Assembly (NCBI RefSeq): GCF_009914755.1
Contig: NC_060941.1
Length of the DNA: 64,000 bases
Direction: 5' to 3' (one strand)
Origin: the human T2T-CHM13v2.0 reference genome, Homo sapiens
This document shows, piece by piece, positions 30,043 through 56,050 of this stretch (position 1 is the stretch's first letter; each line of letters starts with the position of its first letter). The notes below the pieces were generated by a model. It made no database searches, was not told the origin of the DNA, and saw nothing but the letters and a program-made list of their open reading frames with translations. A program made the translations under genes and the position numbers.

Positions 30043-30437
30043 AGTTAAACTCAATGGGGCCTGAGGCTGCCTCCATACCTTGAGTCTCTACGTATGGAGC
30101 TGCAACATAACTTAGCATGGAAAGAAACCTGAAGCCTAACTTAAGAGTGTATTTTTGTAACAAATAGCTGAGTCCCAACCAACAAAAGCAGCTGAGATTC
30201 AGCCAATCATAGGCTGCCAACATATCAAATCATGCCTAATAAATGCAAATGCAAAGCCATAACTGGTCTAGCTGTTTGTGGACCTCACTTATATTTTCCG
30301 TCTATAAATGCTCCCTCCTGCACAAGCTTTGGAGCAGAGCACTGACCTCTTCTGGTCCTGAAGGCTGCCTGATTTGTGAATAATTCTCTACTCAATTAAA
30401 ATCTGTGAAATTTAATTTGTCTAAAGTTTTAAATACA
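30043..30437 (+). mobile_element. MER57-family ERV1 solo LTR nested in the ERVL env-like region
   Basis: gttaaa start, gctgcctcc, gtaacaaatagctgagtc, cagccaatca, ggctgcctgatt...ctcaattaaaatctgtgaaatttaatttgtctaaag...aca end match recalled MER57 consensus. Confidence 0.75.
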
Positions 30438-33400
30438 TCAGTAAAGGTCTTGCTGGATAGGAATGTAGTCATGGTTGGTGGGTCAGTGTGTGGCCATCCT
30501 GGGTGCACGACAGGGATGGTTACAATGAGAGAGTCTTCCAGCAGGTGGAAAAATCAGTATGTGATCTGGAAAGGCATGAACTAGTCTCCAGGGGGTACAA
30601 GGCATAGAAGCTTCATGGGCATGAGGTAGTTCCTGGAAGATTGGAAAGATCTGAGTGGGCTCAAGGACTAGATGAGTGTCACGAAAGCGCTAGCCTGTAA
30701 AGTTGTCACAGCAATAGAGGGGTCCAAAGAAAAGCTAAGAAAAAAAGGTGAGGAGGTGTTTATGGAAGCTGATCCAGAAGGGAAGCTTGCTATGTGTTAG
30801 AAAAAAGCAGACTTCTTACAAGCGAAAGTGGCCTGTGACACAGAAGGCTGCCTGTGGTCAATCAGGCAGTGATATTAGTCAGTAGCATTGTCACATAGCA
30901 AGATGGCAGAGTCCACGGGATAGGAGTCAATTAGCAGTGAAGTCCCAGCTTCCACTTCTCATGAGGAAAGATGTGAGTGCCAGAGAGAAGGTGTCATGAG
31001 GCCGATGTTGCAACTAATTGTTGGAATTCTGGCAATCTAGCAGTGGAGGCACTGCATGGTGAAAAATCAAAGTGAGAAAAGGGGGTCAAATCTGGAGTGA
31101 CTCTTGTAGGCAGCACAGTCAGAATCAGTCAGTGTAATGACAATGGGACCCTGAGTCAGCCCAGTCCAGAAGCAGCATAAGAAGTTGGGTCCCCAGGAGG
31201 TGAACTGGGTCCAGTGGATGGCCTCTGCCTGAGGCACCATTCAAGAGTTCCTAGTTGGGGCTGTAAGTGGAAGCACAGCTCACAGGCTTGCTGACAGTAG
31301 TAGTAGTAGCAGTGGTAGGAACAGAAGTCAGGGCACTCCTTCCAACACTGGAGATGCTAATCAAATGGCATTTTAACAGTATGAGCAGGGTCTTGTCCTC
31401 ACTATCAGGTGTATTTTTGGTACAAATGACCCCGGGGGTGCTTATTGGCACTGGAGGGGCAGTTTCAGGTCTGAGGTTTGTGGCAGACAACGTGGAGTTA
31501 GTAGTAAGCAGGCCATACAGTAGAGGACATCAACAGGGAGGCTCCCAGTCCAGAGCATTGCATGGCAGTCATCCTCAGGAGGTTTGCCCAGGATATAGAG
31601 ATGAGGCCCTGAATGAGAAGCACTAACATAAAGCAAAAGCAGCAGTGGCAATAACCAGGATGGGGTATGTCTGTCTGTAGGCCAGAAATGTGATTCAGCC
31701 CAAGTTACCTTATCGCTAGAAACCTAAAGGGGGTGATGTGCTTCCCAGGGCATCTGCCAGGACATTTTTCTAGTCTGCCAGCTGTCAGCTCACTCTCATG
31801 CAGGGTTGATTCTGCAGTCGGGTTCCAGAACCCCCAGTGGGACAGCGAGGTGGTGGTGGCTGCCATGTCTCAAAGTGGGATCAAATACAGGGTGGTTGGT
31901 GGCACACCCATCCCTATAACAGTAACTGGACAGGGAGAGGTGAGGAGACCCTGAGATGCCAATGCCCATGGTGGGTGGCCCTGAGGTATGGATAGCATCC
32001 CTGAGAAGACAGGTAAGTGGAAAACATGATTCAAGGATTCCTTTCCTAGGGCCAGGACAAGGGCTGTGGTAGCATCAAAGTCCAGTTAACCCACAATGGG
32101 GTGGCAGGTTGGCCTAAAGAACCATGCAGAAAGACTGAAAGGCGGGTTTGCCTCCTGGGTGTGGAGATGAGTAGTGGCAGCAGTGGGCAGCTGTTAATAT
32201 GGGCCAGCACCAGGGGCAGACATTAGTGCCAAGAAGGAGTCAAGTGGCCAATGTGTTTACAAAGAAGGGATGTTTTTCCAACAGCCCACACATTCTCTCC
32301 ATTAGCCCACTGCAGTCTTCTGGTATGGAAGGTGAAATGCCCAGGTGAATGCCATTCCCCAGTGCCCACTGTTGGGTGACCTCAATTGTAGAATGGGTAC
32401 CTTGGTTGGACTGAATGACATGGGGGTTCCACAAAGGGGTCAGGACTGAGGTAGGAAGAAGACCTTCTGGGCTGTCAACATCAACAGAAAAGCAAGGAGC
32501 AGGCTAGAGTTAGTGTCAACAATAGTGAGCATAGCTGGTGAGGCCTGCTCCTTGCTGGAGTAGGCCAATAAAATCGACTTGCCACTTGGCATGTGGGTAG
32601 TCACCTCTCCAAATGTGACTAAGGGAGAAAAAAGAGTGATGTCTCATCAGCAGAGCAGCCAGTCTTGGACGGCCCAAGCAAATGAGCTGGATGGGACAAG
32701 GAAGCCCCATATGTAAATCCAAGTTAACAGTCAGGCCTAGCTTAGATGTCCCAAAGTCAGGTGTGCCCAGGAGGTCCAGCCGGTCCAAGTACCACAGTCT
32801 CAGCTATAAGGGTAGAGATGTGGGTAAGGCAGTCTGCCTTTTGGTTATATTGAGAGGCAGCATCTTGGTGACTGCTGTGAGCTGACACATGGTGAACAAG
32901 TGGCACAATTATTAAGTATCAGCAATGTACCCCCAAAGGGAAGCAACCCCACCCCAGTGCCTGATCATGGTCATCCAGTGTGATGCCACCCACAGCCATC
33001 AGCAAAGGCCCCAGAATTGGTGAAGATGTGGATTTCAGGATGGCCTTGGATGGTAGAATCAGGACAATGGCTGTAGTTTCTGCCCACTGAGCTGAATGAC
33101 CCTTCCTCTGCAGCTGGAAGGGGGTGTCTGAAGCAGAAGGACGGCTAGTAGCTACCCAGATGGCACCTCTGCATGCCCCATCAGTGAAGCAGGCATACCC
33201 CTGCTGCAACAATGTGATGGCCCCCCAGCTGGTGGAAGGGCCCCAACTAACCAAAGGCTGAGTGGTAGCTGTTTATTGGAGATCTTCCTCAGGCACACTG
33301 GAGGAGCAGAGACTGAAATCCTCATGAGGCACTGAAACTCCTAAGCGTTCGGGCTTGGCTCAGTCCCGTGACTACCATTTCTACTTGGCAAGAAATGGTC

Positions 33401-33930
33401 GGTGGTGGTGCCCAGTTTGCAAAGATGAGGATCCCAAATCCAAGGCACAATGGGGATCTATTTTTAACGTGATGGGCTTGGATCCTGTCAGTGTCCATCT
33501 CAGAGAGGGCTAGGTAAGCTGCAGCCAGCTGTCCCAAGAGAGTCAAACACATTAAACACAGGATTTATGCCAAAAGCCCACTGGAAGAAGAGACCTTGAT
33601 TGGGTAATCTAAAGCCTCTATGTGTCAAAAAGCGATGTTCTTGAAACCTAAAGCCTACATCTGCAAATCCTTCCTCCAGAGGACCAATAGAAGAGCCTCC
33701 TGGACTGCCTGCTGGTCAACCCTTAAAGCTTCTTCTGGAGAAGGGCCTGAGTGAAGGTGGATGTCTCATAGGTGACCTGAAAAATTGAACTTACTGGAGG
33801 TTTGGCATATGTTTTCTCCAGAAGCCAAAAATACCAGCGATGCCCTGGGTCTTCTTGGTGGAGATGGGAAACCCTGAGGGTGACGAGCCTGAGGCTGACT
33901 GGTTGTAGATTTTGTCTGCCTTCCTTACTC

Positions 33931-35855: not shown

Positions 35856-36110
35856 TAATCTGATTGACACAGGAAAAAAAGCATTTGGCTAAATCCATCA
35901 TATGATTAAAACCCTAACCAAACTAGAAATTGAAGAGTACTTCCACAATCTGGTCAAGGGCATCTAAGAAAACCTACAATAAACATCCTAAACTAAGTTA
36001 GTGGGTAAAGAATGTTTACTCCATAAGATTGGGAACAATACATGAGTAATCACTTTGACCACTTCCATCAACATTCTACTGAAGGATTTTGCTCAAGAAA
36101 TAATGCTAGG
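35856..36110 (+). mobile_element. Old L1M ORF2 fragment
   Basis: aaaagcatttg..aaatcca, aatctggtcaagggcatcta.gaaaacctaca. Confidence 0.7.
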
Positions 36111-36149
36111 AAAAAAATCAGCCAATGGCTCTTCAAAACACTTAACGTG

Positions 36150-36960
36150 GAAAGGACACCCTATTCACTAAGTGGTTCTGGGAATAGTGGCTGACCATAT
36201 GCATAAGAACGAAACTGGACCCCTCTCACTCACCTGTACAAAAATTAACTCAAGATGGATTAAAGGCCTAAATGTAAGACCTAAAACTATAAAGATCCTG
36301 GGAGAAAACCTGGGAAAACTCTTCCAGACACGGGAATGCTCATACATTGTTGGTGGGTATGTCAATTAGTTCAACTTCTATGGAAAAAGTAGGGAGGTAT
36401 CTCAAAGAACTAAAAGTACAACTACCTTTCCACCCAGCAATCCCACTACTGGGTATCTACCCAAAGGGAAAGAAATCATTATATAAAAAGGCACTGCACT
36501 CCCATGTTTATCGCAACATAACTTACAACAGCAAGGTCATGGAACCAAGGTAAGTATCCACCAACGGTTCATTAAATAAAGAAAATGTGGTGCATATACA
36601 CCATAAAGTACTAGGCAGTCATAAAAAAGAACAAAATCATGTCCTTTGCAGTAACACAGATGCAGCTGAAGGTCATTATCCTACGTGAATTAATGCAGAA
36701 ACAGCCAAATATTGCATGTTCTCGTGTATCAAGTGGGAACAATGGGTACACATGGACATGAAGATGGAGAGAATATACTCTGGGGACTCAAAAAGTTGGG
36801 GGGAAGAGTTGAAAACGTACCTACTGGGTACAACCTCCAATATTTTTGGGTGATGGGTATGCTAGAAGTTCAACCCCCCCATTGTGCATGTGATATACAT
36901 ATAACAAACAAGCACATGTACCTTCTGAATCTAAAATAAAATAGAAAAAGAAAAAAGCCA
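36150..36960 (+). mobile_element. L1PB/L1MA-type 3' fragment with internal deletion and A-tail
   Basis: aaaattaactcaagatggattaaag, cccagcaatcccactactgggtatctacccaaagg, catgtacc..ctgaatctaaaataaaa. Confidence 0.85.
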
Positions 36961-37285
36961 AAGAAAAACATCCCGGGAATCCAGGGAGCAGCGGCTACTG
37001 CCTCCACTGCTCACTGCAGCCCGCAGGTTCCACGCCGGCAGCTCCTGCCTGCGGGCAGTGGAGCTGCGGAGAATGGCGGGATGGGTCTAGGTGCCAGGGC
37101 CAGAGCCCAGGAGGGGCGCTGGGTGGGGGCCTGGTCGGCCTCTGCCTTGCACCGGAGCAGGGGTGCCTGGTGAAACAGGCAACCTGATGCTCTCTGGGCC
37201 CTGCCCACGTTCCCCTTCCATCCACCCTCCTTTGCATCTTTCTGTGCCTGGGGCCCCCATAGAAAGCGGTCACATCCAGACTCAC

Positions 37286-37465
37286 CAGGCCTGAGATGCT
37301 GGAGGATGGAGAAGCGCTTGCCACGGGAAAATTCCTCCAGGAACACATGAACAAAACTTCGCCTGCACCTGGGACATCCTTCTGTACGGCTGGCCTACGA
37401 GGCAAGTGTTCTGCACATGCTCCGTAGCTAACTCCAATGCAGAGGAGCACATGAGCCCAACCTCC
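37286..37465 (-). ncRNA. Putative non-coding first exon (leftward transcript, same strand as TBC pseudogene)
   Basis: Canonical TATAAAAG at 37498-37491, donor CTG|GTGAGT at 37286/37285; homologous to the rightward exon. Confidence 0.35.
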
Positions 37466-37744
37466 ATGGCAGGTGCAGATCTTTGCCTCCCTTTTATAAT
37501 GTCTGTATTCAAATGACATATCCTGGAAGCCTCTTTCTGATAGGATGAGAGCAGACTCTGTACTACAACACAGATTGGATAAGTCTCCAACTCTGATTAG
37601 TTAAGATTATCCAGTCAGAGCAGGAGACTATTATCCAATAAGAGTTGCCAAAAAAAGTTCCTTCTCACCCAATCAGAACCAAGCTTCCAAGATACAGCGG
37701 TTGAGTACAGCCACTGTAAAAGGGAGGCGAAGGCCCATTCTGCC

Positions 37745-37942
37745 ATTTTCTCTTCGTGGAGGTTGGGCTCGCGTGCTGCTCTGCGCTGTGGTCGTCATGG
37801 ACCGGAAGCGTGTGCGGCGCGCCTGCCTTGAGGCCAGCAGCAGGGAAGGGTGTTCCCAGGTGCAGAGGAAGTGTCCTTCACGTGTTCCTGGAGGACTTTC
37901 GGTTAGCAAGCACTTCTCCATTCTCCCAACGTCTCGGGCCTG
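37745..37942 (+). ncRNA. Putative non-coding first exon (rightward transcript)
   Basis: Starts ~25-30 nt after TATA-like box, GCCATTTT (YY1/Inr-like) at ~37742, CCGGAAG ETS motif at ~37802, strong donor at 37943. No transcript evidence available. Confidence 0.4.
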
Positions 37943-38482
37943 GTGAGTCTGGATGTGAGCGCATCCCACGGGGCCCAAGGCACAGAGAGAGAGAGAGGAA
38001 CGGGGTGGAGGGAGGGAAGCGTGTGCAGGGGCCAGGAGCGCCAGGGTTCGGGCTTCTCGGCCCGCCCTCCTGCTGCTGGCGCTGTCACCTCCCTGTGGTC
38101 CTGCCTTCTGGGTCCCTGAGGGCCTCCCGTCATCTGGAACTGGAAATAAGTTAGTGAAGCCACGGTTTGTGAATATTTATTGGCCTTTGCGTCTTTGTCT
38201 TCATTTTCAGTGCTGGTTTTTCTGTTGGGTTATTTGTGTTCTTACGTTGATTTGAAGAATTTAAAAAGGTATTCTATAAATTAATCCTTTATGGGGTCAT
38301 TTCTAGTGCAGATAGTTGTTTCTTGTTTTAGTCTGGTCGTTGTACCTTAATTTTATTTCACATTTCTTTCTTGCTAAAATCAATAAGAATCTAATTGATT
38401 TTATAGATTGATTTTGTATCGTGTTACCTGGCTTAATTCACATATTCATAGCCATCATTTTTGGATTGTGGTGGGTTTTTCA

Positions 38483-38552
38483 TGTACTTATGTACCTGTA
38501 GTTATGTACTTATGTATTTAAATACTTACGTACTTAAATACTTATGTACTTA
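38483..38552. repeat. Degenerate TACTTATG-type short tandem repeat
   Basis: tgtacttatg / atacttacg / atacttatg units. Confidence 0.7.
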
Positions 38553-39243
38553 GTGTCAGCCACATATAGTAACAGCTATATTGCTTAAACGTTGGTTCTT
38601 ACACCTTTATTTTTCTTTATTTTCTTCTTTTATTGTCCCGATCACACCTCCTGAACACGGTGTGTCTGGTTCTGATTCCAGGGAAAAGGTTTCAGTGATC
38701 CTGTATTCCTTATGTAGTTTGCTATAATTTCATTTTAGACAAACTTAATCAGATTAAGGAAGCTGCCTTCTTTTACATACGCTAAGAGTTATTTATGACT
38801 AATTGTTGAATTTGAATAAATGCTTTTTTAACATAAACTGTAAATCATATGTTTTTCTCCTATTTTTCTGAAAATAGGATATTTTACATGAACTATTTTT
38901 GGATGTTAACCAATCCTGCATTTTTTAGTATATCCCACTTGGTAACCATGTGTTACATTTCCATATGTGGTTTAATTCATATGATTTTTTTTTTTAGAAT
39001 ATTTGTATTTCTGTTAATGAAAGAGAGGGCCTATATTTTTTTTTCTAATGTCGTCTTCAGATTGTGGTGTCAACGTAATGCTGGCTTCACAAAACCAACT
39101 GAAAAATATTTCCTGTATTTCTTCTCTTTGGAAGAGTCTGAGAAATTTAGGTGTTTTCTGCCTTAAATATTTGGAATATTTCTTTAGGTATGGAATTTTC
39201 CATGTGGAACAGTATTTTTGTTGGCTGGTTTGACTTCTAATAA

Positions 39244-39748
<505 letters not shown>

Positions 39749-39832
39749 TAGGAAGTTTATTTTTCAATGTGATGTTATTTGAATTTCTGTTGTCAAACTT
39801 GTAGTCCTAAGTATTTCACAGAACCCTCCTAG

Positions 39833-40257
<425 letters not shown>

Positions 40258-40499
40258 CTGTAAACCAACTTTTATCCTGGATTTGTTTCTGTTGCATTTT
40301 TTTCCTATTTCATTGATGTCTGCTCTTTATTACTTTAACGCTGCATTCTTTCATTTTGATCGTTTTTAATTCTTGAGAAGGGAGTTTATGTGATTGATTG
40401 TCAATCTTGTTCTCTATTCTAACAATTTCCTTTGAGGCGTAAATTTCTCTCTAAGCAGGGATTTATCTGGCAGCCCACATTTTCTGTCAGGTGTTTCCA

Positions 40500-41553
40500 A
40501 ACCCTGTGTCTGCAGCCGCGTTGACCTCCCAGTGTCTCCACCCTGTATCGCCTACAGCCATGTCAGGCCTTGTGTGTCTCCATCCTTGTGCCTGAAGCCT
40601 GTATCTTCTCACCAGTATCACCATCCCGTAATGACTGAAGCCCACGTCTGCCCTTGTGTATTGTCACCTGGTCTGTCCTCTGCCTGCACTTTATGCCCCC
40701 TGTCAGAAGTCTCCATTTCTTGCTCCTGCAGCGCGTGCCAGCTGTGTGAGTCTCCATCCTGTGTGCTTGCAGCACATTGCTTGCCTTGAATGTTGCCATC
40801 TCCTTAGCCTTCAGGCAGTAGCAGTCCTCCAGTGCCTCAATCCCTGTGTTTGCAGCCCATTCTGATGTTTTTGTCTGTCTGTCCCCTGAGCTTCTGCCCA
40901 TGCCAGCTTATGTTTGCTACATTCTCTGTCCCCCTAATCCATGTCCACAGTCAGTGTTTTCATCCATGCTTTTTGGGCCATGTCTGCACTTGTGTGTCTC
41001 CTTCCCCTGTGCCTTCAGCCCATTTCTGTCCTTTTTCTGGATCATTTCTCCCAGGAGACTATGCCCAAAACTCCTATCCCCAGTGTTTGTACCTGCAGCC
41101 AGTCTCTTTCGTGGAGTACCTCCGTCTGTTGTTACTGCAGCAGAGGCCTGTCATTGAGTGTGCCTGCTTCCCATGCCTGTCTTCCTGTGTCTCCAGCCCT
41201 TGTCCATGCAGTCCACATTAGGACTCTTGTGACTCCACCCTTCAGCCTACAGCCACATCTACCTTCGGGTGTCTTTATCTCTGTGCCCCCTGCCCACGCC
41301 AACCTTCACCTACTCCTCTGTCCTGCACCTGTACCCATGTCTGTCCCTGGTGTGCCTCTCTGCCATGCAGCTGTAGCCAGCGAGCTCCCTTTTTGTCTGG
41401 ATCCCCTGTGACTGTAGCCCAGGTCTTCTCTCCTGTGACTGCAGCCCATGTCTGCCCTTGAATGTCCCCATCCTCTGTGCTTGTCACCCGTCGGCCAGGC
41501 CTAGCATGTTTCCACTCTGTGCCTACACCCATGTCTGCCTGCAGGGTCTCCAT
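40500..41553. repeat. Degenerate ~40-bp minisatellite (consensus about TGTGTCTCCATCCCTGTGCCTGCAGCCCATGTCTGCCCT)
   Basis: Recurrent tgtctcc / ctgtg(c/t)ctgcagccc / atgtctgccct words at about 40-bp spacing. Confidence 0.75.
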
Positions 41554-42467
41554 TCATGGTGCCACAGTTTGGTTCCCGGTCCCTATCCTCCTGGGGTGGA
41601 TTCTGGCATTGTGTTGGGAGGGAGAAGGTGACCCATGAAAGGGAAGCCTGGAACGATGTAATGGGCAAGGAGGCTGCCATTCAGCAGGCTGCACAGTGGC
41701 AGAGAAGACATGGACAGTCAGAATCCTCCCTGCATCGGGGCACTCACGTGGGGCTGTGCCTGATGTGGGGAGTAAGGGGAAGCTGGAGCAGGAGGTCTGG
41801 AGCCACCTGGCCCTCTTGGGCCTGAGACCTCCCCACTGCAGGGGCTCCATCACTTCCCTGGTGGTCCTGCCTCCTGGGATCCTGCCCTGCAGTGTTTCTG
41901 CAGGGATCCTGTCACCTGGAACTTGCAGTGGCGGGTTTTGTGTGAGGTAGAGTTTAGCAAACGTTTATCGGCTTCTATGCCTTACTTTTCTTCATATGCT
42001 TTGTTCATTTTGTGCGTGTTTTTGTAGGGTCCTTTTTTTAATATTGATTTGAAGGATTTATCTTAAATCTGCAAATTGATCCTTTATTGGCTCATTTTTG
42101 TCATAGATACTTGTTCTCTAGTTTGATCATTATTTTCTACTGGTTTCATACTAGTATATAGTAATCTGGTTGATAACAATAATGTATCCAGTAAGTTATT
42201 AATTGTAACAGTTTTGGGGTTTTCAGGGATTGTCTAGGCATGTAATAGTGTCATATACACATATGACAATTTTTTTGGTTTAAAAATTAATCCTAATACC
42301 TTTCTATTTCTTACTGTATTGTTTCTCCACTACAATGCTGATTAAAGAGTGATAGCAGGCATCTTTATCTTGTCCTGCACTGGTGGAAAAAGCTTCCCAT
42401 AATTCTCTGTTAATTATGTTATATGTTATTGGCTAGTATTAGACTTTATCAGATTTCATCAAATTAA

Positions 42468-43685: not shown

Positions 43686-44404
43686 CCAGCTCTGTTTATT
43701 AAAAAGGAGATACACACTGTTTATGAAAGAGGTGACATAATTTTATTCATTTGTGTTCCATAATGTGTCCTGGTCCAATTGTGTCCTCAATGTAATGCCA
43801 GCTACACAAAAAATTTTTTAAATATTATCTTTATTTTCATTTTAGTGTTTTTCTTTGTATGGACTATTCCATAATTATGAGCTGGGAGTTTTACTTCTGG
43901 AACATTTTTGTTTGTTGGTTTGATTTTTTTTTCCAAGAATTTATTCAATTTGTTTAGTAGACTAGGAGTTTTTCTATTTCATGTTATGTTTGGGTCAGTT
44001 TGGGTAAGTTGGTTTTTTAAATGTGGTGCATTTTGTTCTCTGTTGAATTTTTAGACCCTCATATTTCACAAAGTCCTCTTAAGTTCTTGTTAAGGTCCAC
44101 AGGCTCAGTGAAGAATGTGTCTGTGTTGATTTCTGATATTGATGGTTTGTGTTAACTTCTCTTTTTCCTAATCACATTGACTAATGGTTTATTGATGTTA
44201 TTTGTTGATTTGTTTTTGTTGTGCTTTATTTTTTATTTATTGATGTCTGCTGTTATGTTTTTTATTGCCTTTATTCGGTATACTTCCAGTTTGATTGTTC
44301 CTTAGCTTTGATCCCTGAGAAGGGAGCTGAGATGATTGATTTTCAGTCTGTCTTTTCTGACATCCTCACTTAGGGTGTATGTTTCCACTAAGCTCTGATC
44401 TAAG

Positions 44405-44985
44405 CATCTCCTGTATGCACTCAGCTGTTTCCAACCCCTGTGCCTGCAGCACTGTCTGTCTCCCAATGTCTTCATCCCTGTGTCCCTGCACACATGCCAT
44501 GCTTTGTGCATCTCCATCCCAGTGCCTGATCTGCAGGTTCTCTCCATGTCTGCCCTTGTGTGTTGTCAGGTTTTGCCGTCCTCTCAGCCTGCAGTACAGA
44601 TCTTGCCTAGATTGTCTCCTTCCCCTGCGCCTGCCTCCCATGCCAGTCTTCATTTGTCTTTGGTCCCTCTGCATGTAGCCCATGTCTTCCCTCATTTGTA
44701 TCCATTCCTTGTCCATGTGGCCCATGTCAGGATACCTGGGTCTTCACTCATCACCTAGAGGTCCATATCCATCCTCAAGTGTCTTCATTCCCCAGCTGCC
44801 CTGTGCCTGCAGGCATATCTGTCCTCAAGTGCTGCCATACCATGTGCCTGTGGTCAGTGTCTTCCTTTTGTATCTGAAATCCTTGTGGCTGCAGTGCTGC
44901 CTTCTCATGTGTCTGTCCCCATTTCCTCTGCTGCACCCTAAAGGTCTCATGTGTCTCCATCACCTGTTCCTGCCTTGGGTTACAA
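44405..44985. repeat. Second copy of the degenerate ~40-bp minisatellite
   Basis: ccctgtgcctgcagc, tctccatcccagtgcctg, catgtctgcccttgtg words. Confidence 0.7.
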
Positions 44986-45592
44986 GTGACACAGTTTGGT
45001 TGTGTGTTCACTGAAGGATGATTTGATTCCTTCCAGGTTTTCGTCATTGTGAATAAAGCTGCTGTGTGTATTTTCTTATTGGTTTGTGTGTGGATGTGTT
45101 TTCACACCAGTTGGGTAGATGTGTAGGGGCACGGTTGCTGCACACTATGTGATGCTGCAGTTTCCTTTGCAATAACATGCCGTGCTATCTTGTGAAGTGG
45201 CTATGCCATTATGCAGTCTCCCCAGTAATGAAGGAGAGTTCCTGTTCTGTATCCTCGCCAAGGATTGGTAGTGCTGGCTTTTGCTTGTTTGTTGTTTATA
45301 GAACTGTCCTAATCGATGTATAGGCTGTCTATCTCATTGCTGTTTGAATTTGCTTTCCGTAGCGTACAGTGCATTACTTTTTTCTCCTAATTCCCTAGTG
45401 TTCACCATGTCTTTATATGCTGATTTTCCATCAGAATATTTACTATTGGGAGGTATTGCTACATATATTTGTCCATTTGTTAAATGTAGTTTATTTTCTT
45501 ACTTTCGAATTTTGCAAGTTCTTGGTATATTTTGCATGCAAGTTCTTCTTCAGATAGGTGTTTTGTAAATACTTTCTTTAAAGATAAGTCTG

Positions 45593-47388
45593 GCAAGGAT
45601 CCCCTCTCTCCCTACTCCTATTTAACATAGCATTGGAAGTACTGGCCAGGGCAATCAGGCAAAACAAAGAAATAAAGGGTATTCAAATAGGAAGAGAGGA
45701 AGTCAGATTGTCTCTGTTTGCAGATGACATGATTCTGTATTTAGAAAACCCCATCATCTCAGCCCCAAAACTCCCTAAGCTGATAAGCAACTTCAGCAAA
45801 GTCTCAGGATACAAAATCAATGTGTAGCAATCACAGGCATTCCTATACACCAGTAATAGACAAGCGGACAGCCAAATCATGAATGGACTCCCATTCACAA
45901 TTGCTACAAAGAGAATAAAATACCCAGGAATACAACTTACAAGGGACTTGAAGGACCTCCTCAACGAGAACTACAAACCACTGCTCGAGGAAATAAGAGA
46001 AGACACAAGCAAATGGAAAAACATTCCATCCTCATAGATAGGAAGAATCAATATCGTGAAACTGGTCATACTTAGGTCATAAATTCAAAGTAATTTATGG
46101 ATTCAGTGCTATGCCCATCAAACTACCATTGCCATTCTTCACGGTATTAGAAAAAAACTACTTTAAATTTCATATGGAACCAAAAAAGAGCCTGTATAGC
46201 CAAGACAGTCCTAAGCAAAAACAACAAAGCCAGAGGCATCATGCTACCTGACTTCAAACTATACTACGAGGCTACAGTAGCCAAAACAGCATGATACTGG
46301 TACCAAAACAGAGGTATAGACGAATGGAACAGAACAGAAACCTCAGAAATAACAAGACACATCTACAACCATCTGATCTTCAACAAACTTGGCAAAAACA
46401 AGCAATGGGGAAAGGATTCCCTCTGTAATAAATGGTGCTGGGAAAACTGGCTAGCCATATGCAGAAAACTGAAACTGGACCCCTTCCTTACACCTTATAA
46501 AAAAATTAACTCAAGATGGATTAAAGATTTAAATGTAAAACCCCAAACCACAAAAACCCTAGAAGAAAACCTAGGCAATACCATTCAGGACATAGGCATG
46601 GGCAAAGACTTCATGACTAAAACACCAAAAGCAATTTCCACAAAAGCCAAAATTGACAAATGGGATCCAATTAAACTAAAGAGCTTCTGCACGGCAAAAG
46701 AAACTACCATCAGAGTGAACAGGCAACCTACAGAATGGGAGAAAATTTTTGCAGTCCATTCATCTGACAAAGGTCTAATTTCCAGACTCTACAAGGAACT
46801 TAAACAAATTTACAAGACAAAACAATGCCGTCAAAAAGTGGGCAGAGGATATGAACAGACACTTCTCAAAAGAAGACATTTATGTGGTCAAAAAATATAT
46901 GAGAAAAAGCTCAACATCACTGATCATTAGAGAAATGCACATCAGAACCACAGTGAGATACCATCTCACACCAGTCAGAATGACAATTATTAAAAAGTCA
47001 AGAAACAATAGATGCTGATGAGGCTGTGGAGAAATAGGAACGCTTTTACACTGTTGGTGGGAGTGTAAATTAGTTCAACCATTGTGGAAGACAGTGTGGT
47101 GATTCCTCAAGGTTCTAGAACCAGAAACACCATTTGACCCAACAATCTCATTACTGGGTATATACCCAAAGGAATGTAAATCATTCTACTATAAAGACAC
47201 ATGTACACATATGTTTATTACAGCACTATTTACAACAGCAAAGACATAGAACTAACCCAAATGCCCATCAATGATAGACTGGATAAAGAAAATGTGGTAC
47301 ATATACACCATGGAATACTATGCAGCCATAAAAAAGGATGAGTTCATGTCCTTTGCAGGGACATGGATGAAGCTAGAAACCATCATCC
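45593..47388 (+). mobile_element. L1PA-type LINE-1, ORF2 RT to C-terminus, truncated at both ends
   Basis: [37 protein letters not shown] and [21 protein letters not shown] peptides; interrupted frames. Confidence 0.95.
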
Positions 47389-47447
47389 TTGTTTGGGGGG
47401 TGAGATTTATTGGCTCTGTAAGCAGAACATGAACTTTTGCCCATTTA

Positions 47448-47779
<332 letters not shown>

Positions 47780-48365
47780 TCATTATCTTCCTTATTGCTT
47801 TTAAGAGTTCTTTATGTATTCTTGATATAAGTCCCTTGTCATTAATTGTGTGGCAAATACCTTCATCCAGTGTGCCTTAAATGTTCTTCTTTTGATGAAC
47901 AAAGTTCTTAAGTCTAATTCATCAATCTTTTCTCTAACGGTTAATGCTTTTTGTATTCTGTGTAAGACATTGTTTATTCCAAGATCATGAAGATACTGTC
48001 GTATGTTTTCCTGCAGAAGCTTTATTGTTGTATCTTTCACACTAAATAGAAACCCTCTTTAAAATCACCAACTCCTACTGCATTCTTAAAATATTTTGCT
48101 AAACTTTTCGAAGATTCTGGCACCACAACACTCGCTTCCCAGCCTCAAACCTTTTGGGGAGGTGGGGACAGAGAAAGAAAGAAGCTGGCAGGGAAAACCC
48201 AGCCTCAGCCAAGACCTAGCCCAGATAGTAAATTAGCAGGGCTGGGAGTCTCCATCATATCAGCAGTCACATGTCTTAAAACCAGAATCTACCAAGATTA
48301 TATATATATCTTGTATCTGCCACTGCCATTACCTTCTTTTCATTTTATGTCAAAAAAAGAAAAAG

Positions 48366-48497
48366 AATCCCAGCACTGAGGCAGGAGGATTGCTTGAGCC
48401 CAGGAGTTTAAGTCTGCAGTGAGCTGTGATAGCACCACTCCACTCCAGCCTGGGTGACAGAGGGAGACCCTGTCTGAAAAGAAGAAAAGAAAAGAAA
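48366..48497 (+). mobile_element. Alu monomer (FRAM/FLAM-like)
   Basis: ggaggattgcttgagcccaggag...gaccctgtct. Confidence 0.8.
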
Positions 48498-48997
48498 ACC
48501 TGTCGTGTTACTGACCAGTAATAGGGGCTCCCAAAGTATAAACTCACCTCAGACCCCTGTTTGTTCTTCCTGCTACCTGTCCATTCTGCCTCCGCCCCGT
48601 TCCGAGGCTGGACCATACCATGAAGGAAGGCCCCTTGGTTACAGCCTCCCCAGCCCGTCAGCCATGCTGCCAAGAATACTGGAAAGAATAAAAAGCTAGA
48701 GGGAGGCGGCTGCCTGCAAGAGGTTTAGCATAAAGGAAATAGGAATGGTAACAGGAAATTGAAGAAAACAGTTAAAAAGAGCATTCATTCAAGAATGACC
48801 CCACTGATGCCACCTGTGCTGTCCCCCACCTGACAGAAATGGACCGAGGCAGCTGCCAGAGTGGATATGCAAAGGCAATTCACGTGTTCATTAGTGCCCT
48901 TTTATGATGTAACCTAGTCATAATGAGATTGCGGGGAAGAGATAGAAAATAAGATGTTTCCAATCTTGATCATAAGAATAGTATTTCCTGCTGGCGT

Positions 48998-49000
<3 letters not shown>

Positions 49001-49040
<40 letters not shown>
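49001..49040. repeat. (TG)20 microsatellite
   Basis: Perfect TG run. Confidence 0.97.
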
Positions 49041-49043
<3 letters not shown>

Positions 49044-49404
49044 ATTTTGGATTAGCTTTCAAAATATTTTACATTTGATGAAACCCAAAACTCATTTTGC
49101 CTGGAGTAATTTTTATTCATTGTTAAATCTCTGTAAAATTAGAAATATAAATATGTGTCTGGTTTATTTACTCTTCACAAAATATGGTGTCTAGACCTGT
49201 TTGTTTATGATGCCTCTTAGGCTCGTTCTCTCTGAGTTAGGAAGCCAAAAAAAAGTGGTAAAAGTCAGATGGTTCATAGTCTTTTTGAAAACCAGTAGCC
49301 ATGTGCATTTTACTTAAAATGACTTTCTTTTTACCTCACCAAAGTACAGCATGATAGGTTATGTTCAATCCCTGTCGCTCTCCGTGTGTGTGTACATATG
49401 TATG

Positions 49405-51320
<1,916 letters not shown>

Positions 51321-53345
51321 TCCTTCCATATATTAATCCAATAATGAACTTGTGTTCAGGGACCTGTTCAGCTCCAGTTAATATTGTAGGTGCTGGGGAT
51401 TCCACAGTGAATGAAACAGGCAACAGTCCCTGCTCTCATGGAACTTACATTGTCATTGGGTCTGGCAGTTAACTGAAATAGAAGGTAACATATGTACCAT
51501 ATTTGAAGGGGATATTACTGTGGAGAGAAATAAAGCAGGGAAGGAGGATTGGGAATGTTGGGTGAATGGTGCAGTATATATACAGTAGTCAGGGAGGTGA
51601 CATTCGAGCACTTGCACCTCTTCCCTGAAGGGCTTTGGTGTCTGCATGAAGGTTTATTTCCCACCAAGGACTAGGTGTGGAAGGTCAAAGTAAGGAGGTC
51701 ATCACTGCCGTGACTGTGCCAATAGGAGCTGAAGTGACACAATGGTGGTCGCCTCAGGTCAGCAGCACTGGGAAGTGAGCATCGCAGCCAGACCCACCTG
51801 CAGAGCCCTGGGCCAGCTGCCTGACATCTTGAGTGGCCCAGAATTGAGACCCAGTAAAAGCACATGAGTCTGCTCTCACTATCAAGTGAGGCCCACACTG
51901 AGCTCAAAATGGTGCTCCTAGGAGACCCTTCCACACATTCTGCTCAACTCAGACATCCTGGGGTCTTTTTGGAATAAGTCACTCCCAAGAAGGCCCTGCA
52001 AATTACTCTCAGTCCTCAAATTTCATGCTCCTGATGCGTGTTAGCTCTTTTCCAAGCCAAGGGCAGCCCTGACCCATGGAACCCCTATACCTCCTTTTCT
52101 TTCATCTAAGAGTCTACTCTGAGCTCCTGGTTTTGTGTTACGATGGGGAAATCTCCATCTCTAATGTACTTTCCAGTAAGAATTCTGGAGGGACAGGAAG
52201 CCAAGAGGGTGAATGTGACAGATAGAATTCTAAGGATAATCTCCATGACTCTCCCCAGAATAATGTCCTTCCCTTTATATGACACAGGGAGGTGGTCTGG
52301 ATGTGCCCCACCTGATCACAGAGCCCTGTAAAAGCCAAGAGGTGTAAAGCATGAGAAGGACTCTGAATGTTCTTGGTGGCTTGAAGAGGGAGGGGCACAT
52401 GAGAAGGAGCTGAGAAGGGCCCGGGCCCCTGGCTGACAGTCACCAATGCTTTAGTGCTAGAAAGTCCCTAGCCATGCCCAGAAATTGTCATGTGGGTGCT
52501 CTGCAGTTCTGAGGTTGACACCTGCAAATGTGGTGCCACCAGGTCCTTTGTCTCCGTCTCTGTCCTGATGCCCTCAGACCTCAGCCAGGCCAAGGATGCT
52601 GTTTGCTTTGCCTCTGCCTTCCTTCAGCCGGGGGATCTTGGCCTGGAAGTCACTCTGATGAATGTGTGGAATTCAGCTCTAAGTCTCTCCTGCATCCTCT
52701 GTCACCTCCCAAGAAGCATGATGAGGCACAGCCACCCCACACCTTCATGGGTGGCACCTTGGCTGTGGTCCTTGGGTCCTGCCATGCCATGGACCCTTGG
52801 ACACTGGTGAATCAGGCAAGGGCATGGGTAGAGAGTCCCTGCATCTCACCTGGATCTCAAAAGCTGGAATCCGTAACCCTTAGCAAGTTGTGATGGGACG
52901 AGTTTAAGAGTTTTAAAGGCTGCTGTTTTCATGTTTGAAACTACAATATTAGAGCAGTATTGTAGTATTAGAGTCAGCAGCTCTGTGAGGTGGTGAGAAC
53001 CCCAGCCCTGGAGGTGTGCAACCAGGAGGGGAGGTGGGGCACAACAAGAGCATCCTGTAGTGACTGTAGGCTTGCTTGTTTCTACAGACAGAAAGTTCCT
53101 AGCAGTGGGATTTGTTTGTTACCTCTTTCTTAGAAATCCACCTGCCAGAGCCCAGCTGTTGTTTTGCTACTGTTCATTGACACAAGCAATGAAATTTAAA
53201 AGTTACAAATAGCACTAAAGGCCCCTTTGACGGTCACCCCCAGTTCTGTCCCACCCAGTGGTAGCCAGTGTCATCATGCATGTCCTTGCAGGCTTCTTAT
53301 GCTTCACAGTCACGTGTGCATGATCACGAACGACACAGCACTGTA

Positions 53346-53395
53346 GTGTATGTGTGTGCGAGTGTGTGTGTGTGAGTGTGTGTGTGTATGTGTGA
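53346..53395. repeat. Imperfect (TG)n microsatellite
   Basis: Interrupted TG run. Confidence 0.85.
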
Positions 53396-53412
53396 TGTTT
53401 GGTTTATCATAC

Positions 53413-54062
53413 TGAGGCAGGAGAATAGGGTCTGGAGGCAGAGAACTTAAAGCCAACTCATGCTGAATTCCTAAAGGTGAATCAAGGGAAACCACCAAGG
53501 TCTGGGGGCAGGGAACCTGGGGTCAATTCATGCTGACTCCCTAAAGAGAGAACAGCTGGATCTGGGGGCAAGGAACCTAAGGCCAATTAATGCGACCTTC
53601 CTAAAGCTACCACCCCCCCACACAAACCATTCTCCCCACACCCAAGTGGCAAAGGATCAAAGGCTCCTCTCCTATAGCCCTCCCCTTCCACCACGTCTCA
53701 GATGGAAAGGGAGAGTGCCCTGGATTGGCCAGGGCCAAGCACGAGCCATCCCTTCCTCAGCATAGGGCACCAGTTTGCCCCAGCCTTTAGTTAGCCACGA
53801 CCAAATCCTTCATCCAGGTAAGGGTTAGCCTATAGGGTCCTCAAAAGGAGTACTTAAAACCCAGAAAACTTTGTAACCAGGCCCTTGAGCCCGTTGCTCG
53901 GGCCCACTCCCACCCTGTGGAGTGCTTTCTGGCTTTAATAAATCCCTGCTTTCCTGCTTCCTTCCTGTGTTTAATTTCTTTGTTACTTTGTGTGTTTCGT
54001 TCAATTCTTTGTTCAAAACGGCAAGGACCTGGACAACTCACGCTCCCTTCCTTCCAGTAACA
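53413..54062 (+). mobile_element. MER61/MER51-group ERV1 solo LTR, full length
   Basis: TGAGGCAGGAGAATAGGGTCTGGAGGCAG start, three internal tctgg(a/g)ggca..gaac repeats, AATAAA at ~53937, ends gtaaCA; 4-bp flanks atac/gtac. Confidence 0.8.
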
Positions 54063-56050
54063 GTACTGTAAGACTCACGCTATAAACTACTTTTATTCAC
54101 TCAATATCTGTCCCGAGAGCTTCCACATCTGTCTCACGCTCTTAATTGTAGCATAGATTCCTGGCTCTGCCCCGTGCACCCTGCTTATTCAGGCATCCTC
54201 TGCTGCATGAACATTTACATTGTTTCCTGTTTCTCGCTGTCATCAGGAGGCTCATGGAGGAGGAGAATTTCTGGGGGGTGGGTTAGGTGTGTGTTGTACA
54301 TTTAACTGACCCTGGCTGGTTACTCTCCAGAACGCTGCTGCCAGCTCCCTCCCTCCAGTGGGCCCTGAGTTCATGCTTCTGTAGATCACCCCCCTGCCCT
54401 TGATGTTACCAACTTTAAAACTTTGCAACCTGATGGCTGAAAGTTAGTTTTCCATTGTTCAGTTGTGTTTTTCTGATTTTTGGGAGACTGGACATTTCCT
54501 GTGTTTGCTGACCATCTGCTTCTCCTCTCCTGCTCTGTGCACCATCACCCTGCTCCAGCTGCTTCCTGGAGCCTCCCTCCTTCCTCTCCACCTGCTCACA
54601 TCCTCCTCGTCCTTCAGTTTCTTCCCAAGGGCCCATGGACTTTCTTTGGCTTTTACGTTCCTCTCACTCCGCCTTTGGCTGTTGCTGGGCTTCCCATCCC
54701 CTGGGAAGTTTCAGAGGATCGGGAAGACACAGGAGTGCAGTCGCCATGCGGTGCAATACGGGCCATAGTATTCATCCTCCACGGCCTTTATTGAGGACTT
54801 ACTGTGTACCAAGAACCTGCTCTAAGAACGTAACTGTGCTCCCTCACTTCATGCTCATAACCACCTGTGAGATGGGCAATGTTCTCATCCCCTTTTATGC
54901 AGAGGGACAGAGAGGAGTAGAGGCACAGAGGAGTTCCATAAATTGTCACCAAGGCCTTCCACTGGTGTGCGGCAGGGTCAAGATTGAAACCCAGGCTGTC
55001 CAGGCCTAGGGTTCAGCCTTTCCAGTGCTCTGCTAGGTGTTGGACAGGGCCAACGAGACACAGAGAAAGAGCATCACCTGACTTGGGCTGGGTCAGAGAT
55101 GGCTTCCTGGAGGAGGTGACAGCTCAACAGAGCCTTGAAGGAGGATCAGGAGGAGCTGACTAGGCAATGAATAGAATAAGTATGTCCAGGAAAAGGGAAG
55201 GGCCTTCTCAGTGATGCTGGGAGGCTGGAGAGCTGTCCTGGCCCAGGATGTGTGCCCGGGGGGCAGGAGATCAGGCCCAAGGGGTGGCCAGGGCCGGATC
55301 TAGAAGACTTGGGCCATCCCACAGTCGATACCTGATCCCAAGGCCAGGCAGGCCTTCCACTGCTCTGTGCGCACTGGTGGGCAGTGCCCCCATGGGACCC
55401 CAGGAGCCTGGACCCCAGCCACTCACCTGGGCTCCTGAGACCCAAGGCGCAGGCACGGGGGTGGGAGGGGGTGCGGCTAATTTACATCTTAACAGGTCAA
55501 GGGGAAAACTGCACGTCTCACTGTGCAGATGGAACCCACCGCTGGATGGACCTAGGACACAGCCTGGATTCACAGCCTTTCCCTGCTGCTGTGTCCCCAC
55601 ACCCCAGGCAGGGAGCGAATCTGTTCTCTGATCTTCTTTTGTGTCCAGTTAACCATGTCCCCAGATACGGACCTGATCAGGAGCTCAAGTACATAAACTT
55701 TCTGAGAATTGAACAAAGCGGTGACCAAAGGCTGCCTCGACACAGGATGATGTTGCTTAGAGCCCTGGGACCACGAGTCAGGACCAGCCGGAATTGTGAC
55801 CTGGTGCTGGCAGAGGCTGTCTGGTGCTGCAGAATCAGCCCTGGCCAGTTGTTCCCTGACGCACACTGGGACTTTGGCTGAGACACTTCCCGTCAGCTGT
55901 AAAACAAAGAAGACTGTCTTTCCTATTAGATATGCCTCAAAAACACAAAAGTGCTTTGAACCTGCCAGACTTCCTCTTGAAGAGTCACAAGCACACAAGA
56001 GAAGGCTCTGAGAAAGAAGGCCTGCAGTTTAAAAAAAAATACTTTGGCTT

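What the first reader, a model, noticed from the sequence alone, without database searches (positions are those of the whole stretch)
37180..38046. Bidirectional promoter built by fold-back duplication: mirror-image CCAAT/TATA/exon-1/splice-donor cassettes
Seen: the sequence is an imperfect palindrome with almost no spacer (axis 37605/37606; ctctgattag 37591-37600 pairs with ccagtcagag 37611-37620). Each ~430-bp arm carries, reading outward, a CCAAT box, TATAAAAGGGAGGC (left) or TGTAAAAGGGAGGC (right), a ~200-nt exon-like stretch (TGGAGGTTGGGCTC...TCCCAGGTGCAG...TGTTCCTGGAGGA) and the same donor context GGCCTG|GTGAGTCTGGATGTGA. Inference: one core promoter plus first exon was duplicated head-to-head, creating a divergent transcription unit with homologous 5' exons. 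The donor context is identical over 22 nt while the arms are otherwise clearly diverged, hinting at constraint. It matches no repeat consensus I recognise and is the best candidate for an undescribed system here (e.g. a divergent lncRNA pair or a germline/piRNA-precursor promoter).
Basis: partly seen in the sequence, partly recalled or inferred. Interest (0 to 1): 0.85.

Follow-up and report, generated by a model that had tools for sequence, protein, structure and literature searches.

The report
Old mirror-image promoter-like duplication, chr17 duplicons
A real, nearly spacer-less 0.87-kb imperfect palindrome whose two arms each look like a small promoter plus first exon sits in five chromosome-17 segmental-duplication copies, but it appears to be drifting neutrally, so it is more likely an old rearrangement relic than a new regulatory system.

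Summary
Window 37183-37604 and 37607-38045 are reverse complements of each other (328 matches, 86 mismatches, 33 gap columns; 79% identity; 2-nt spacer). It is not a dispersed repeat. The human assembly holds it only at six chr17 loci: four full copies 94-97% alike, one older damaged copy, and one fragment. A control query containing ordinary repeats found thousands of candidates.

The arms differ equally (78-79%) in all four full copies. The fold-back therefore predates the segmental duplications, at roughly 50-100 Myr (inferred).

The claimed sign of constraint fails. A 22-nt identical run arises in 11% of shuffles. Arm-to-arm identity is flat (promoter 76%, exon 79%, intron side 84%). The paralogues vary inside the palindrome as much as in the flanks, or more.

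The only hint of activity is asymmetric CpG decay. The right arm keeps 21 CpGs (exon o/e 0.78), the left 8.

I found no Rfam family, no conserved ORF, no Pfam match and no compensatory hairpin changes. Transcription could not be tested here.

Verdict: an ancient fold-back copy of a promoter/first-exon-like unit. It is now mostly a relic, perhaps with weak right-arm activity. Interest is low to moderate.

The parts
37183..37604 (-). Left arm of the palindrome. Read on the minus strand: promoter-like part, exon-like part, donor, intron side.
   Evidence: alignment. 96-97% identical in three paralogues. CpG-poor: 8 CpG, o/e 0.29.
37605..37606 (.). Axis: a 2-nt spacer (ga) between the arms.
37607..38045 (+). 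Right arm of the palindrome: promoter-like part, exon-like part, donor, intron side.
   Evidence: alignment. 94-95% identical in three paralogues. 21 CpG, o/e 0.59.
37485..37498 (-). Left TATA-like box, TATAAAAGGGAGGC on the minus strand.
   Evidence: Kept in c31.5, weakened in c20.58 (TGTAAAAGGG), lost in c15.7 (GTGAAAGGG).
37716..37729 (+). Right TATA-like box. TGTAAAAGGGAGGC here; ATAAAAGGG in the three paralogues.
37575..37579 (-). Left CCAAT box (attgg on the plus strand).
   Evidence: Invariant in five copies.
37635..37639 (+). Right CCAAT box 1 (TTATCCAAT), the mirror of the left box.
   Evidence: Invariant in five copies.
37669..37673 (+). Right CCAAT box 2 (CACCCAATCAG). Its left-arm counterpart has decayed to CCTATCAG.
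   Evidence: This stretch is absent from c20.88.
37591..37620 (.). Central 30 nt. It holds a decayed third pair of CCAAT-like boxes flanking the axis; these are intact only in the older copy c20.88 (GATTGG / CAATCAG).
   Evidence: alignment.
37286..37467 (-). Left exon-like stretch. The start is inferred from the TATA spacing; the end is at the donor.
   Evidence: GC 0.56, CpG o/e 0.43 for 37286-37465. No transcript evidence.
37745..37942 (+). Right exon-like stretch. It starts at an initiator-like CCATTTT 29 nt after the TATA-like box.
   Evidence: GC 0.61, CpG o/e 0.78. No transcript evidence. The motif definitions are recalled, not tested.
37280..37289 (-). Left 5' splice-site-like CCTG|GTGAGT (exon end 37286).
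   Evidence: Invariant in five copies.
37940..37949 (+). Right 5' splice-site-like CTG|GTGAGTC (exon end 37942).
   Evidence: Kept in four copies, GTAAGT in c20.88; also present in the chr17:5.07 Mb fragment.
36961..38150 (.). GC-rich block of about 1.2 kb (200-nt windows at GC 0.41-0.70, lowest at the AT-rich axis) that contains the palindrome, between AT-rich flanks.

Best explanation
The element is an ancient, nearly spacer-less fold-back (inverted) duplication of one unit of about 430 bp.

The unit has the anatomy of a small RNA polymerase II promoter with its first exon. Reading outward it carries two or three CCAAT boxes, a TATA box about 47 nt further on, an initiator-like CCATTTT 29 nt after that, about 200 nt of G-rich, CpG-rich sequence, a strong CTG|GTGAGT donor, and the start of an intron.

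The fold-back happened once, long before the chr17 LCR17p/SMS-REP-type segmental duplications. Those duplications later copied the finished palindrome to at least five places and a fragment to a sixth.

Since then the structure has drifted essentially neutrally. The left arm lost its CpGs, the behaviour of methylated, silent DNA. The right arm kept a mini CpG island. If anything still fires, it is most likely weak, unannotated, rightward (plus-strand) transcription from about 37745.

What is shown: the palindrome, its copy number, the relative order of events, the lack of measurable constraint and the CpG asymmetry. What is inferred: that the ancestral unit was a real promoter plus first exon, and that the right arm is or was germline-hypomethylated.
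For: - Palindrome anatomy.
- Only six loci, all on chr17. Four full copies are 94-97% identical. c20.88 is 81-85% identical. One fragment corresponds to window 37904-40591, inverted.
- Arm-to-arm identity is the same in every full copy (0.792, 0.784, 0.794, 0.794). The arms therefore diverged before the duplications, and no arm-to-arm conversion has occurred since.
- Distance between arms at non-CpG sites is K=0.20, against about 5% between paralogues.
- CpG asymmetry. Of 21 right-arm CpGs, 12 are TG/CA in the left arm, 3 are kept, 4 are other and 2 fall in gaps. Of 8 left-arm CpGs, only 2 are TG/CA in the right arm.
- Right exon GC 0.61 with CpG o/e 0.78; left exon o/e 0.43; promoter cores have 0 and 2 CpGs.
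- CpG loss relative to non-CpG change among paralogues is about 6-fold in the right arm (9/92 against 1.6%) and about 17-fold in the left arm (5/32 against 0.94%) and in the flank (11/63 against 1.0%).
- Neutral drift. Variable columns among three copies: flank 0.049, left promoter 0.063, right promoter 0.109, right exon 0.066.
- GC skew is positive on the outward strand of both arms.
Against: - No transcript, CAGE tag, chromatin mark or RefSeq model is known to me at the palindrome. The hub table lists none there. One further RefSeq enhancer in the window is not located in that table.
- The promoter reading rests on short motifs recognised from memory, not on a scoring tool.
- The CpG-retention difference among paralogues is not significant (Fisher p=0.20 and 0.22).
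- The right arm evolves faster than the flank at non-CpG sites (1.6% against 1.0%). That fits no constraint at all.
- No unduplicated progenitor gene exists elsewhere in the genome at 70% identity or above, so the unit cannot be tied to any known gene.
- Other species could not be searched, so the age is inferred only from the arm divergence.
Confidence: 0.55

Rival explanations
1. It is a working bidirectional promoter. Both arms fire and give a divergent pair of unannotated spliced transcripts with homologous first exons, such as testis lncRNAs or piRNA precursors. This would happen in each duplicon copy.
For: - Textbook layout on both arms in the window copy: CCAAT, TATA and donor.
- Inferred start sites are only about 280 bp apart.
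- Both donors are intact in all five full or near-full copies.
- The right exon is a mini CpG island.
Against: - No conservation signal. Arm identity is flat and is highest on the intron side, and the paralogues vary as much as the flank or more.
- The left arm is CpG-depleted, as silent DNA is.
- The left TATA box is lost in c15.7, and the right promoter is deleted in c20.88.
- No RefSeq model sits there (hub table).
- From memory, not tested: typical human bidirectional promoters are TATA-less CpG islands, whereas the core here has 0-2 CpGs. Also from memory: pachytene piRNA precursors tend to have very long first exons, not 200-nt ones.
- Six literature searches found nothing.
Confidence: 0.2
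2. It is only an inverted duplication of anonymous GC-rich DNA. The CCAAT, TATA, initiator and donor resemblances are coincidental, and the unit never was a promoter or an exon.
For: - All the functional marks are short motifs.
- No homologous gene 5' end exists elsewhere in the genome.
- No ORF is conserved. The right-exon frame shifts in c15.7 and c31.5, and its ATG is ATA in c20.88.
- Evolution looks neutral.
Against: - The motifs sit in the right order, orientation and spacing: CCAAT about 75 nt upstream, TATA about 29 nt upstream, and a donor about 198 nt downstream of an initiator-like site.
- These coincide with a CpG-rich, G-skewed stretch that begins just where a transcript would.
- The inferred ancestral CpG density of the unit was high. 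The right arm still has 21 CpGs, and 12 decayed ones are visible in the left arm.
Confidence: 0.18
3. It is a transposable element: two LTRs inserted head-to-head, or a fold-back / long-TIR DNA transposon.
For: - CCAAT plus TATA is a common LTR layout.
- TTAA lies next to the axis.
Against: - The arms, the central 279 bp and the divergent c20.88 copy each find only the same six chr17 loci, with 5-6 first-look candidates per search. The same tool returns 3030 and 7103 candidates and dozens of 80-91% hits on many chromosomes for flanks that contain ordinary repeats.
- The arm ends are fuzzy, with no visible terminal repeats or target-site duplication.
- The palindrome is not among the 20 masked stretches that the hub note gives as the longest ones (stretches of 100 or more).
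Confidence: 0.04
4. It is a hairpin-RNA gene. Read-through transcription would fold the 863 nt into a long imperfect hairpin that is processed into small RNAs.
For: Predicted MFE is -552 kcal/mol (z = -26 against 20 shuffles) on the plus strand and -541 kcal/mol on the minus strand.
Against: - That stability follows automatically from any inverted repeat.
- Transitions that would keep G-U pairs show no strand preference: 22 against 25 in the window copy, with p=0.4-1.0 in the four copies.
- 0 of 338 pairs show a change on both sides among the four paralogues, and no measure exceeds its shuffles.
- The arms are only 79% identical, which is poor double-stranded RNA.
- 0 of 7 Rfam matches at E<=1 in 36000-39500 fall in the palindrome.
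Confidence: 0.03

Closest known systems
Human head-to-head (bidirectional) promoters.
   Same: Two outward-facing putative start sites less than 1 kb apart (about 280 bp). CCAAT / NF-Y-type boxes lie between them.
   Different: Known examples are mostly TATA-less CpG islands shared by unrelated genes. Here the core between the putative starts has 0-2 CpGs and TATA-like boxes on both sides. The two sides are homologous mirror copies. No transcript is known.
Duplicated bidirectional promoter of BRCA1/NBR2 and NBR1/pseudo-BRCA1. Recalled. Only the search listing of a 2025 bioRxiv preprint (10.1101/2025.11.08.687349) was seen.
   Same: A promoter together with first exons was copied by a local duplication, giving homologous 5' exons at two transcription units.
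   Different: In that case a whole, already bidirectional promoter was duplicated tens of kb away. Here a single unidirectional unit was folded back on itself with a 2-nt spacer.
Fold-back inverted duplications from hairpin-capped breaks or replication template switching, and the instability of palindromes. Recalled. PMC8053094 was seen only as a listing and the start of its abstract.
   Same: The junction is spacer-less (2 nt). Rearrangement breakpoints are found inside the palindrome in other copies: a copy boundary at window 37243 and a 118-bp deletion in c20.88, and a copy boundary at 37904 in the chr17:5.07 Mb fragment.
   Different: Most described cases are recent, somatic or pathogenic and large. 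This one is germline-fixed, small, old (arms 21% diverged) and was later propagated by segmental duplication.
Large testis-gene palindromes and inverted repeats of the X and Y chromosomes. Recalled (Warburton et al. 2004; Skaletsky et al. 2003), not read here.
   Same: An inverted repeat carrying mirror-image transcription-unit starts inside a duplication-rich region.
   Different: Those arms are 10 kb to Mb long and over 99% identical, kept so by arm-to-arm gene conversion, with sizeable spacers. Here the arms are 0.43 kb and 79% identical, with no sign of conversion.
Hairpin-RNA / endo-siRNA loci made from inverted duplications. Recalled: Drosophila hpRNA, mouse oocyte inverted pseudogene repeats.
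   Same: An inverted duplication able to fold into a long hairpin.
   Different: Those have near-perfect stems and abundant small RNAs. Here the stem is heavily mismatched and shows no pairing-preserving evolution.

Membership tests
Fold-back (inverted) duplication / palindrome | Two arms that are reverse complements over their whole length, beyond chance | tested here: met
   328/414 ungapped columns identical over about 430 bp. Cross-arm hit E=5.3e-50.
Fold-back (inverted) duplication / palindrome | Little or no spacer at the axis | tested here: met
   2 nt (37605-37606) between the aligned arms.
Segmental-duplication (low-copy repeat) content | A few copies of high identity, embedded in collinear kb-scale blocks, on one chromosome | tested here: met
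   Four full copies at 94-97% identity inside blocks of 2.2-4.6 kb and more. All loci are on chr17.
Bidirectional RNA polymerase II promoter | Two divergent transcription start sites less than 1 kb apart, shown by transcripts or CAGE | not testable with these tools
   No expression data are held. No RefSeq model lies at 37180-38046 (hub table). The inferred starts, about 37467(-) and 37745(+), rest on TATA spacing only.
Bidirectional RNA polymerase II promoter | CpG island spanning the shared promoter (typical of the class, as I recall it) | tested here: not met
   Left promoter core 0 CpG. Right core 2 CpG, o/e 0.27. Only the right exon-like part reaches GC 0.61 and o/e 0.78, over 198 bp.
Bidirectional RNA polymerase II promoter | Sequence constraint on core elements | tested here: not met
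   Variable columns: right promoter 0.109 and left promoter 0.063, against flank 0.049. Left TATA lost in c15.7; right promoter deleted in c20.88.
LTR or DNA-transposon family | Many dispersed copies in the genome | tested here: not met
   Only 5-6 first-look candidates, all the chr17 duplicon loci. Positive controls returned 3030 and 7103 candidates.
LTR or DNA-transposon family | Match to a curated repeat consensus (Dfam/Repbase) | not testable with these tools
   No repeat library is available here. The palindrome is not among the 20 masked stretches that the hub note gives as the longest ones (stretches of 100 or more).
Structured or hairpin RNA gene | Compensatory or pairing-preserving substitutions, or a match to a known RNA family | tested here: not met
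   0 of 338 pairs changed on both sides. Wobble-compatible transitions 22 against 25. No Rfam hit in the palindrome.
Protein-coding first exon | Open frame conserved among copies, or a known domain | tested here: not met
   A 1-bp indel shifts the frame in c15.7 and c31.5, and ATG is ATA in c20.88. 0 of 3 ORFs match Pfam at E<=1.
Pachytene piRNA-precursor promoter | A-MYB-bound divergent promoter with piRNA-producing long transcripts | not testable with these tools
   No ChIP or small-RNA data are held. A MYB-like CGGTTG/CAGTTG lies about 15 nt upstream of the right TATA-like box, but such a hexamer is expected by chance. The motif definition is recalled.

The most novel reading that the evidence does not exclude
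The mirror element is a live, germline-active promoter module. A palindromic core of three mirrored NF-Y (CCAAT) sites flanked by TATA/initiator pairs would launch divergent, spliced, so far unannotated transcripts from each of four chr17 duplicon copies. Multi-mapping would have hidden them from annotation. The right arm's retained CpG island would be its footprint. The palindrome would also act as a fragile site that shaped duplicon boundaries, including one next to the chr17:5.07 Mb fragment.
Probability: 0.12. Interest if true: 0.6.

Novelty: new member of a known kind. Interest (0 to 1): 0.28.

Why it matters
If the right arm, or both arms, prove active, this would be a clean natural example of a bidirectional promoter created in one step by fold-back duplication. 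Its homologous first exons would then have been multiplied by segmental duplication. That would be a route to new divergent non-coding transcription units in a region (17p11.2, SMS-REP/LCR17p) known for genomic disorders.

Three rearrangement breakpoints fall inside 0.87 kb in two of the five other loci. This suggests that small old palindromes help set duplicon boundaries.

As the evidence stands, however, the element drifts neutrally and has no known transcript. Its main value is as a dated structural marker of the duplicon family, and as a caution that promoter-like motif sets in a palindrome do not imply function.

Tried and rejected
- Rfam scan of 36000-39500 at E<=1 gave 7 matches, none in the palindrome. 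The best are Alu-derived SRP and mir hits at 39338-39487.
- Hairpin-RNA idea. The stability is trivial for an inverted repeat. There is no strand bias of wobble-compatible transitions and no compensatory changes. Rejected.
- Coding idea. ORFs of 50 aa or more in 36961-38150 were listed and compared among copies. A 174-aa minus-strand ORF survives in three of four copies, but it starts upstream of the left TATA box, runs through the donor, and has no Pfam match; two other ORFs also have none. Treated as a GC-rich chance frame.
- I asked whether LOC101929105 (24345-26700, minus strand) could supply the downstream exons of a left-arm transcript. Its annotated first exon begins at an ATG with no acceptor in front, and its frames gave nothing recognisable. 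Dropped.
- I asked whether c20.88 is the ancestral, unduplicated locus. Its left flank is single-copy apart from common repeats. But homology stops inside the left arm at window 37243 (score 12 against a shuffled mean of 12.4 to the left of that point), and it lacks the right promoter. It is therefore a truncated copy, not the source.
- Extension of the palindrome beyond about 430 bp per arm was not supported by local alignment in any copy.
- Literature: six full-text searches returned nothing on this element. Only listings and abstract starts were seen, and no paper was opened.
- The CpG-retention difference among paralogues was tested and is not significant.
Full report
**1.

Reading 36900-38400 and aligning the reverse complement of the left side to the right side gives two arms, 37183-37604 and 37607-38045. 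They share 328 matches, 86 mismatches and 33 gap columns (79% identity over ungapped columns). Only two bases lie between them. The repeat finder reports the same structure as six collinear inverted blocks. In a whole-genome search the right arm hits the window's own left arm at E=5.3e-50.

These are the central ctctgattag/ccagtcagag pair, the left TATAAAAGGGAGGC (minus strand, 37485-37498), the right TGTAAAAGGGAGGC (37716-37729), the CCAAT boxes, and the two CTG|GTGAGT donor contexts ending at 37286 (minus strand) and 37942 (plus strand).

**2. It is not a dispersed repeat but duplicon content**

The window's own assembly (T2T chr17; the window is chr17:16,802,001-16,866,000) holds the palindrome at only six places, all on chr17:
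- The window itself.
- Three full copies at chr17:15.724, 20.582 and 31.521 Mb. The right arm is 94-95% identical and the left arm 96-97%.
- An older copy at 20.887 Mb, 81-85% identical.
- A 140-bp fragment at 5.0725 Mb.

Separate searches with the central 279 bp and with the divergent 20.887 Mb copy found the same loci and nothing else, with 5-6 first-look candidates each.

As a positive control, two neighbouring queries that contain ordinary repeats produced 3030 and 7103 first-look candidates. In one search, 37 of the 40 listed matches lay outside the duplicon copies, on many chromosomes. The tool therefore does see dispersed families. Its own caveat applies: very common words are skipped and only the best candidates are scored.

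BLAST of the fetched neighbourhoods shows the palindrome embedded in collinear blocks. Window 33876-38375 matches the 15.7 and 20.58 Mb copies at about 94.5%. Window 36360-38563 matches the 31.5 Mb copy.

**3. Order of events**

Arm-to-arm identity is the same in each full copy: 0.792, 0.784, 0.794 and 0.794. Left arms are closest to left arms and right arms to right arms. The fold-back therefore happened once, before the duplications, and the arms have not converted each other since.

The arms differ by K=0.20 at non-CpG sites (0.24 at all sites), against about 5% between the young paralogues. Using generally accepted primate and mammalian neutral rates (my knowledge, not a tool result), the fold-back is roughly 50-100 Myr old and the young copies a few tens of Myr. 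Other species could not be searched here.

**4. What the unit looks like**

Each arm, read outward, has the following in order:
- CCAAT boxes. The TTATCCAAT pair is invariant in all five copies. A second box, CACCCAATCAG, is on the right, with its left counterpart decayed. A third pair flanks the axis and is still intact only in the 20.887 Mb copy.
- A TATA-like box. Three of the four right arms read ATAAAAGGG.
- On the right arm, an initiator-like CCATTTT whose A (37745) lies 29 nt after the first T of the TATA-like box.
- About 200 nt of GC-rich sequence, G-skewed on the outward strand.
- A strong donor.

The order, orientation and spacing are those of a small TATA/CCAAT promoter with its first exon. 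The motif definitions are recalled, and no scoring tool for eukaryotic promoters was available.

The unit is not coding. The ATG-initiated frame of the right exon is shifted by a 1-bp indel in two paralogues, and its ATG is ATA in the older copy. None of three ORFs matches Pfam.

No unduplicated relative of the unit exists elsewhere in the genome at about 70% identity or above. It cannot be tied to a known gene.

**5. No sign of constraint**

- A run of 22 is reached in 2194 of 20000 shuffles of the alignment columns. Five runs of 12 or more are reached in 2043 of 20000.
- Identity between the arms is flat: promoter 76%, exon 79%, intron side 84%. The putative intron is kept best.
- Among the three paralogues that span 4.5 kb, the fraction of variable columns is 0.049 in the left flank, 0.056 in the left exon, 0.063 in the left promoter, 0.109 in the right promoter and 0.066 in the right exon.
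- At non-CpG sites the right arm differs more (1.6%) than the flank (1.0%).
- The left TATA box is destroyed in the 15.7 Mb copy. The whole right promoter (window 37664-37781) is deleted in the 20.887 Mb copy.

**6. The one hint of activity**

The arms differ strikingly in CpG content. The right arm has 21 CpGs (o/e 0.59; 0.78 in the exon-like part at GC 0.61). The left arm has 8 (o/e 0.29).
- Of the 21 right-arm CpGs, 12 are TG or CA in the left arm, 3 are kept, 4 are other and 2 fall in gaps.
- Of the 8 left-arm CpGs, only 2 are TG/CA in the right arm.

Both arms started identical. The left arm has therefore decayed like methylated DNA, while the right arm was at least partly protected, as germline-hypomethylated promoters are. 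This is an inference.

Among the paralogues, CpG loss relative to non-CpG change is about 6-fold in the right arm. It is about 17-fold in the left arm and in the flank. The raw difference is not significant (Fisher p=0.20 and 0.22).

**7. Rivals**

- A TE origin is made unlikely by section 2 and by the lack of defined termini.
- A hairpin-RNA gene is unsupported. The large predicted stability (-552 kcal/mol, z = -26) is automatic for an inverted repeat. Transitions that would preserve G-U pairing show no strand preference (22 against 25). 0 of 338 pairs changed on both sides among the four copies. Rfam has nothing there.
- A fully working bidirectional promoter cannot be excluded without expression data. 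It is disfavoured by section 5 and by the decayed left arm.
- The reading that the motifs are coincidental remains possible.

**8. Breakpoints in the palindrome**

Two of the five other loci carry rearrangement edges inside the 0.87 kb.
- In the 20.887 Mb copy, homology starts at window 37243, inside the left arm. To the left of that point the alignment score is 12, against a shuffled mean of 12.4. The same copy carries the 118-bp right-promoter deletion.
- The 5.07 Mb fragment begins at window 37904, 38 nt before the right donor.

This fits the known fragility of palindromes. That knowledge is recalled, and the sample is small.

**9. Comparison and verdict**

- Ordinary head-to-head promoters. 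These are unlike this case: usually TATA-less CpG islands between unrelated genes.
- The duplicated BRCA1/NBR2 promoter region.
- Fold-back inverted duplications.
- The large X/Y testis-gene palindromes, which are kept identical by conversion, unlike here.

Six full-text searches found no description of this element. Only listings were seen, and subscription journals are not covered.

I file it as a new member of a known kind: an old fold-back duplication of a promoter/first-exon-like unit, carried along by segmental duplication. It is now mostly a neutral relic, possibly with weak right-arm activity.

Confidence is 0.55 and interest 0.28. The boldest reading still allowed, a live mirror promoter hidden by multi-mapping, gets about 0.12.

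Noticed in passing
window 38063/38064: Just outside the right arm the window copy lacks 49 bp (49 alignment columns). All four other copies (15.7, 20.58, 31.5 and 20.887 Mb) carry this stretch. It is a private deletion of this duplicon.
   Followed up: partly
window 30067-33875: About 3.8 kb is present in the window but absent from the 15.7 and 20.58 Mb paralogues, whose alignments join 30066 directly to 33876. It is probably a later insertion. Its content was not examined.
   Followed up: no
window 43893-54447: About 10.5 kb of the window has no counterpart in the 15.7 and 20.58 Mb copies, which jump from 43892 to 54448. This is a large indel between the duplicons.
   Followed up: no
L018:153-320 (chr17:5,072,652-5,072,819): At the chr17:5.07 Mb fragment, the DNA directly beyond the breakpoint inside the right arm translates to a keratin-like piece (…LDKLTLAGANLEMQPENLKEDLVYLKK). 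It gives a weak Pfam Filament match (PF00038, E=0.0015, 18.7 bits, below the cut-off of 40). A palindrome fragment is thus joined to an intermediate-filament pseudogene fragment.
   Followed up: partly
chr17:20,886,888-20,887,578 (L005:1081-1771): This older copy (81-85% identical) preserves intact CCAAT-like boxes on both sides of the axis (GATTGG…CAATCAG); these have decayed in the four younger copies. It lacks the right promoter. Its left flank is single-copy apart from common repeats.
   Followed up: yes
window 39338-39487: Sub-threshold Rfam hits to Metazoa_SRP (56 bits, cut-off 70) and to the mir-1268/mir-3135 families. This is the usual signature of an Alu element.
   Followed up: no
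window 36995-37519 (minus strand): A 174-aa ATG-initiated ORF runs through the left arm. It is open in three of four paralogues (174, 174 and 169 aa; 117 aa in the 20.58 Mb copy) and has no Pfam match. I judge it a chance frame in GC-rich DNA, but did not test it further.
   Followed up: partly
whole genome: No copy of the palindrome or of its right-hand neighbour (window 40600-42450) was found around chr17:18-19 Mb. From memory, the middle SMS-REP should lie there. That repeat seems to lack this sub-block.
   Followed up: partly
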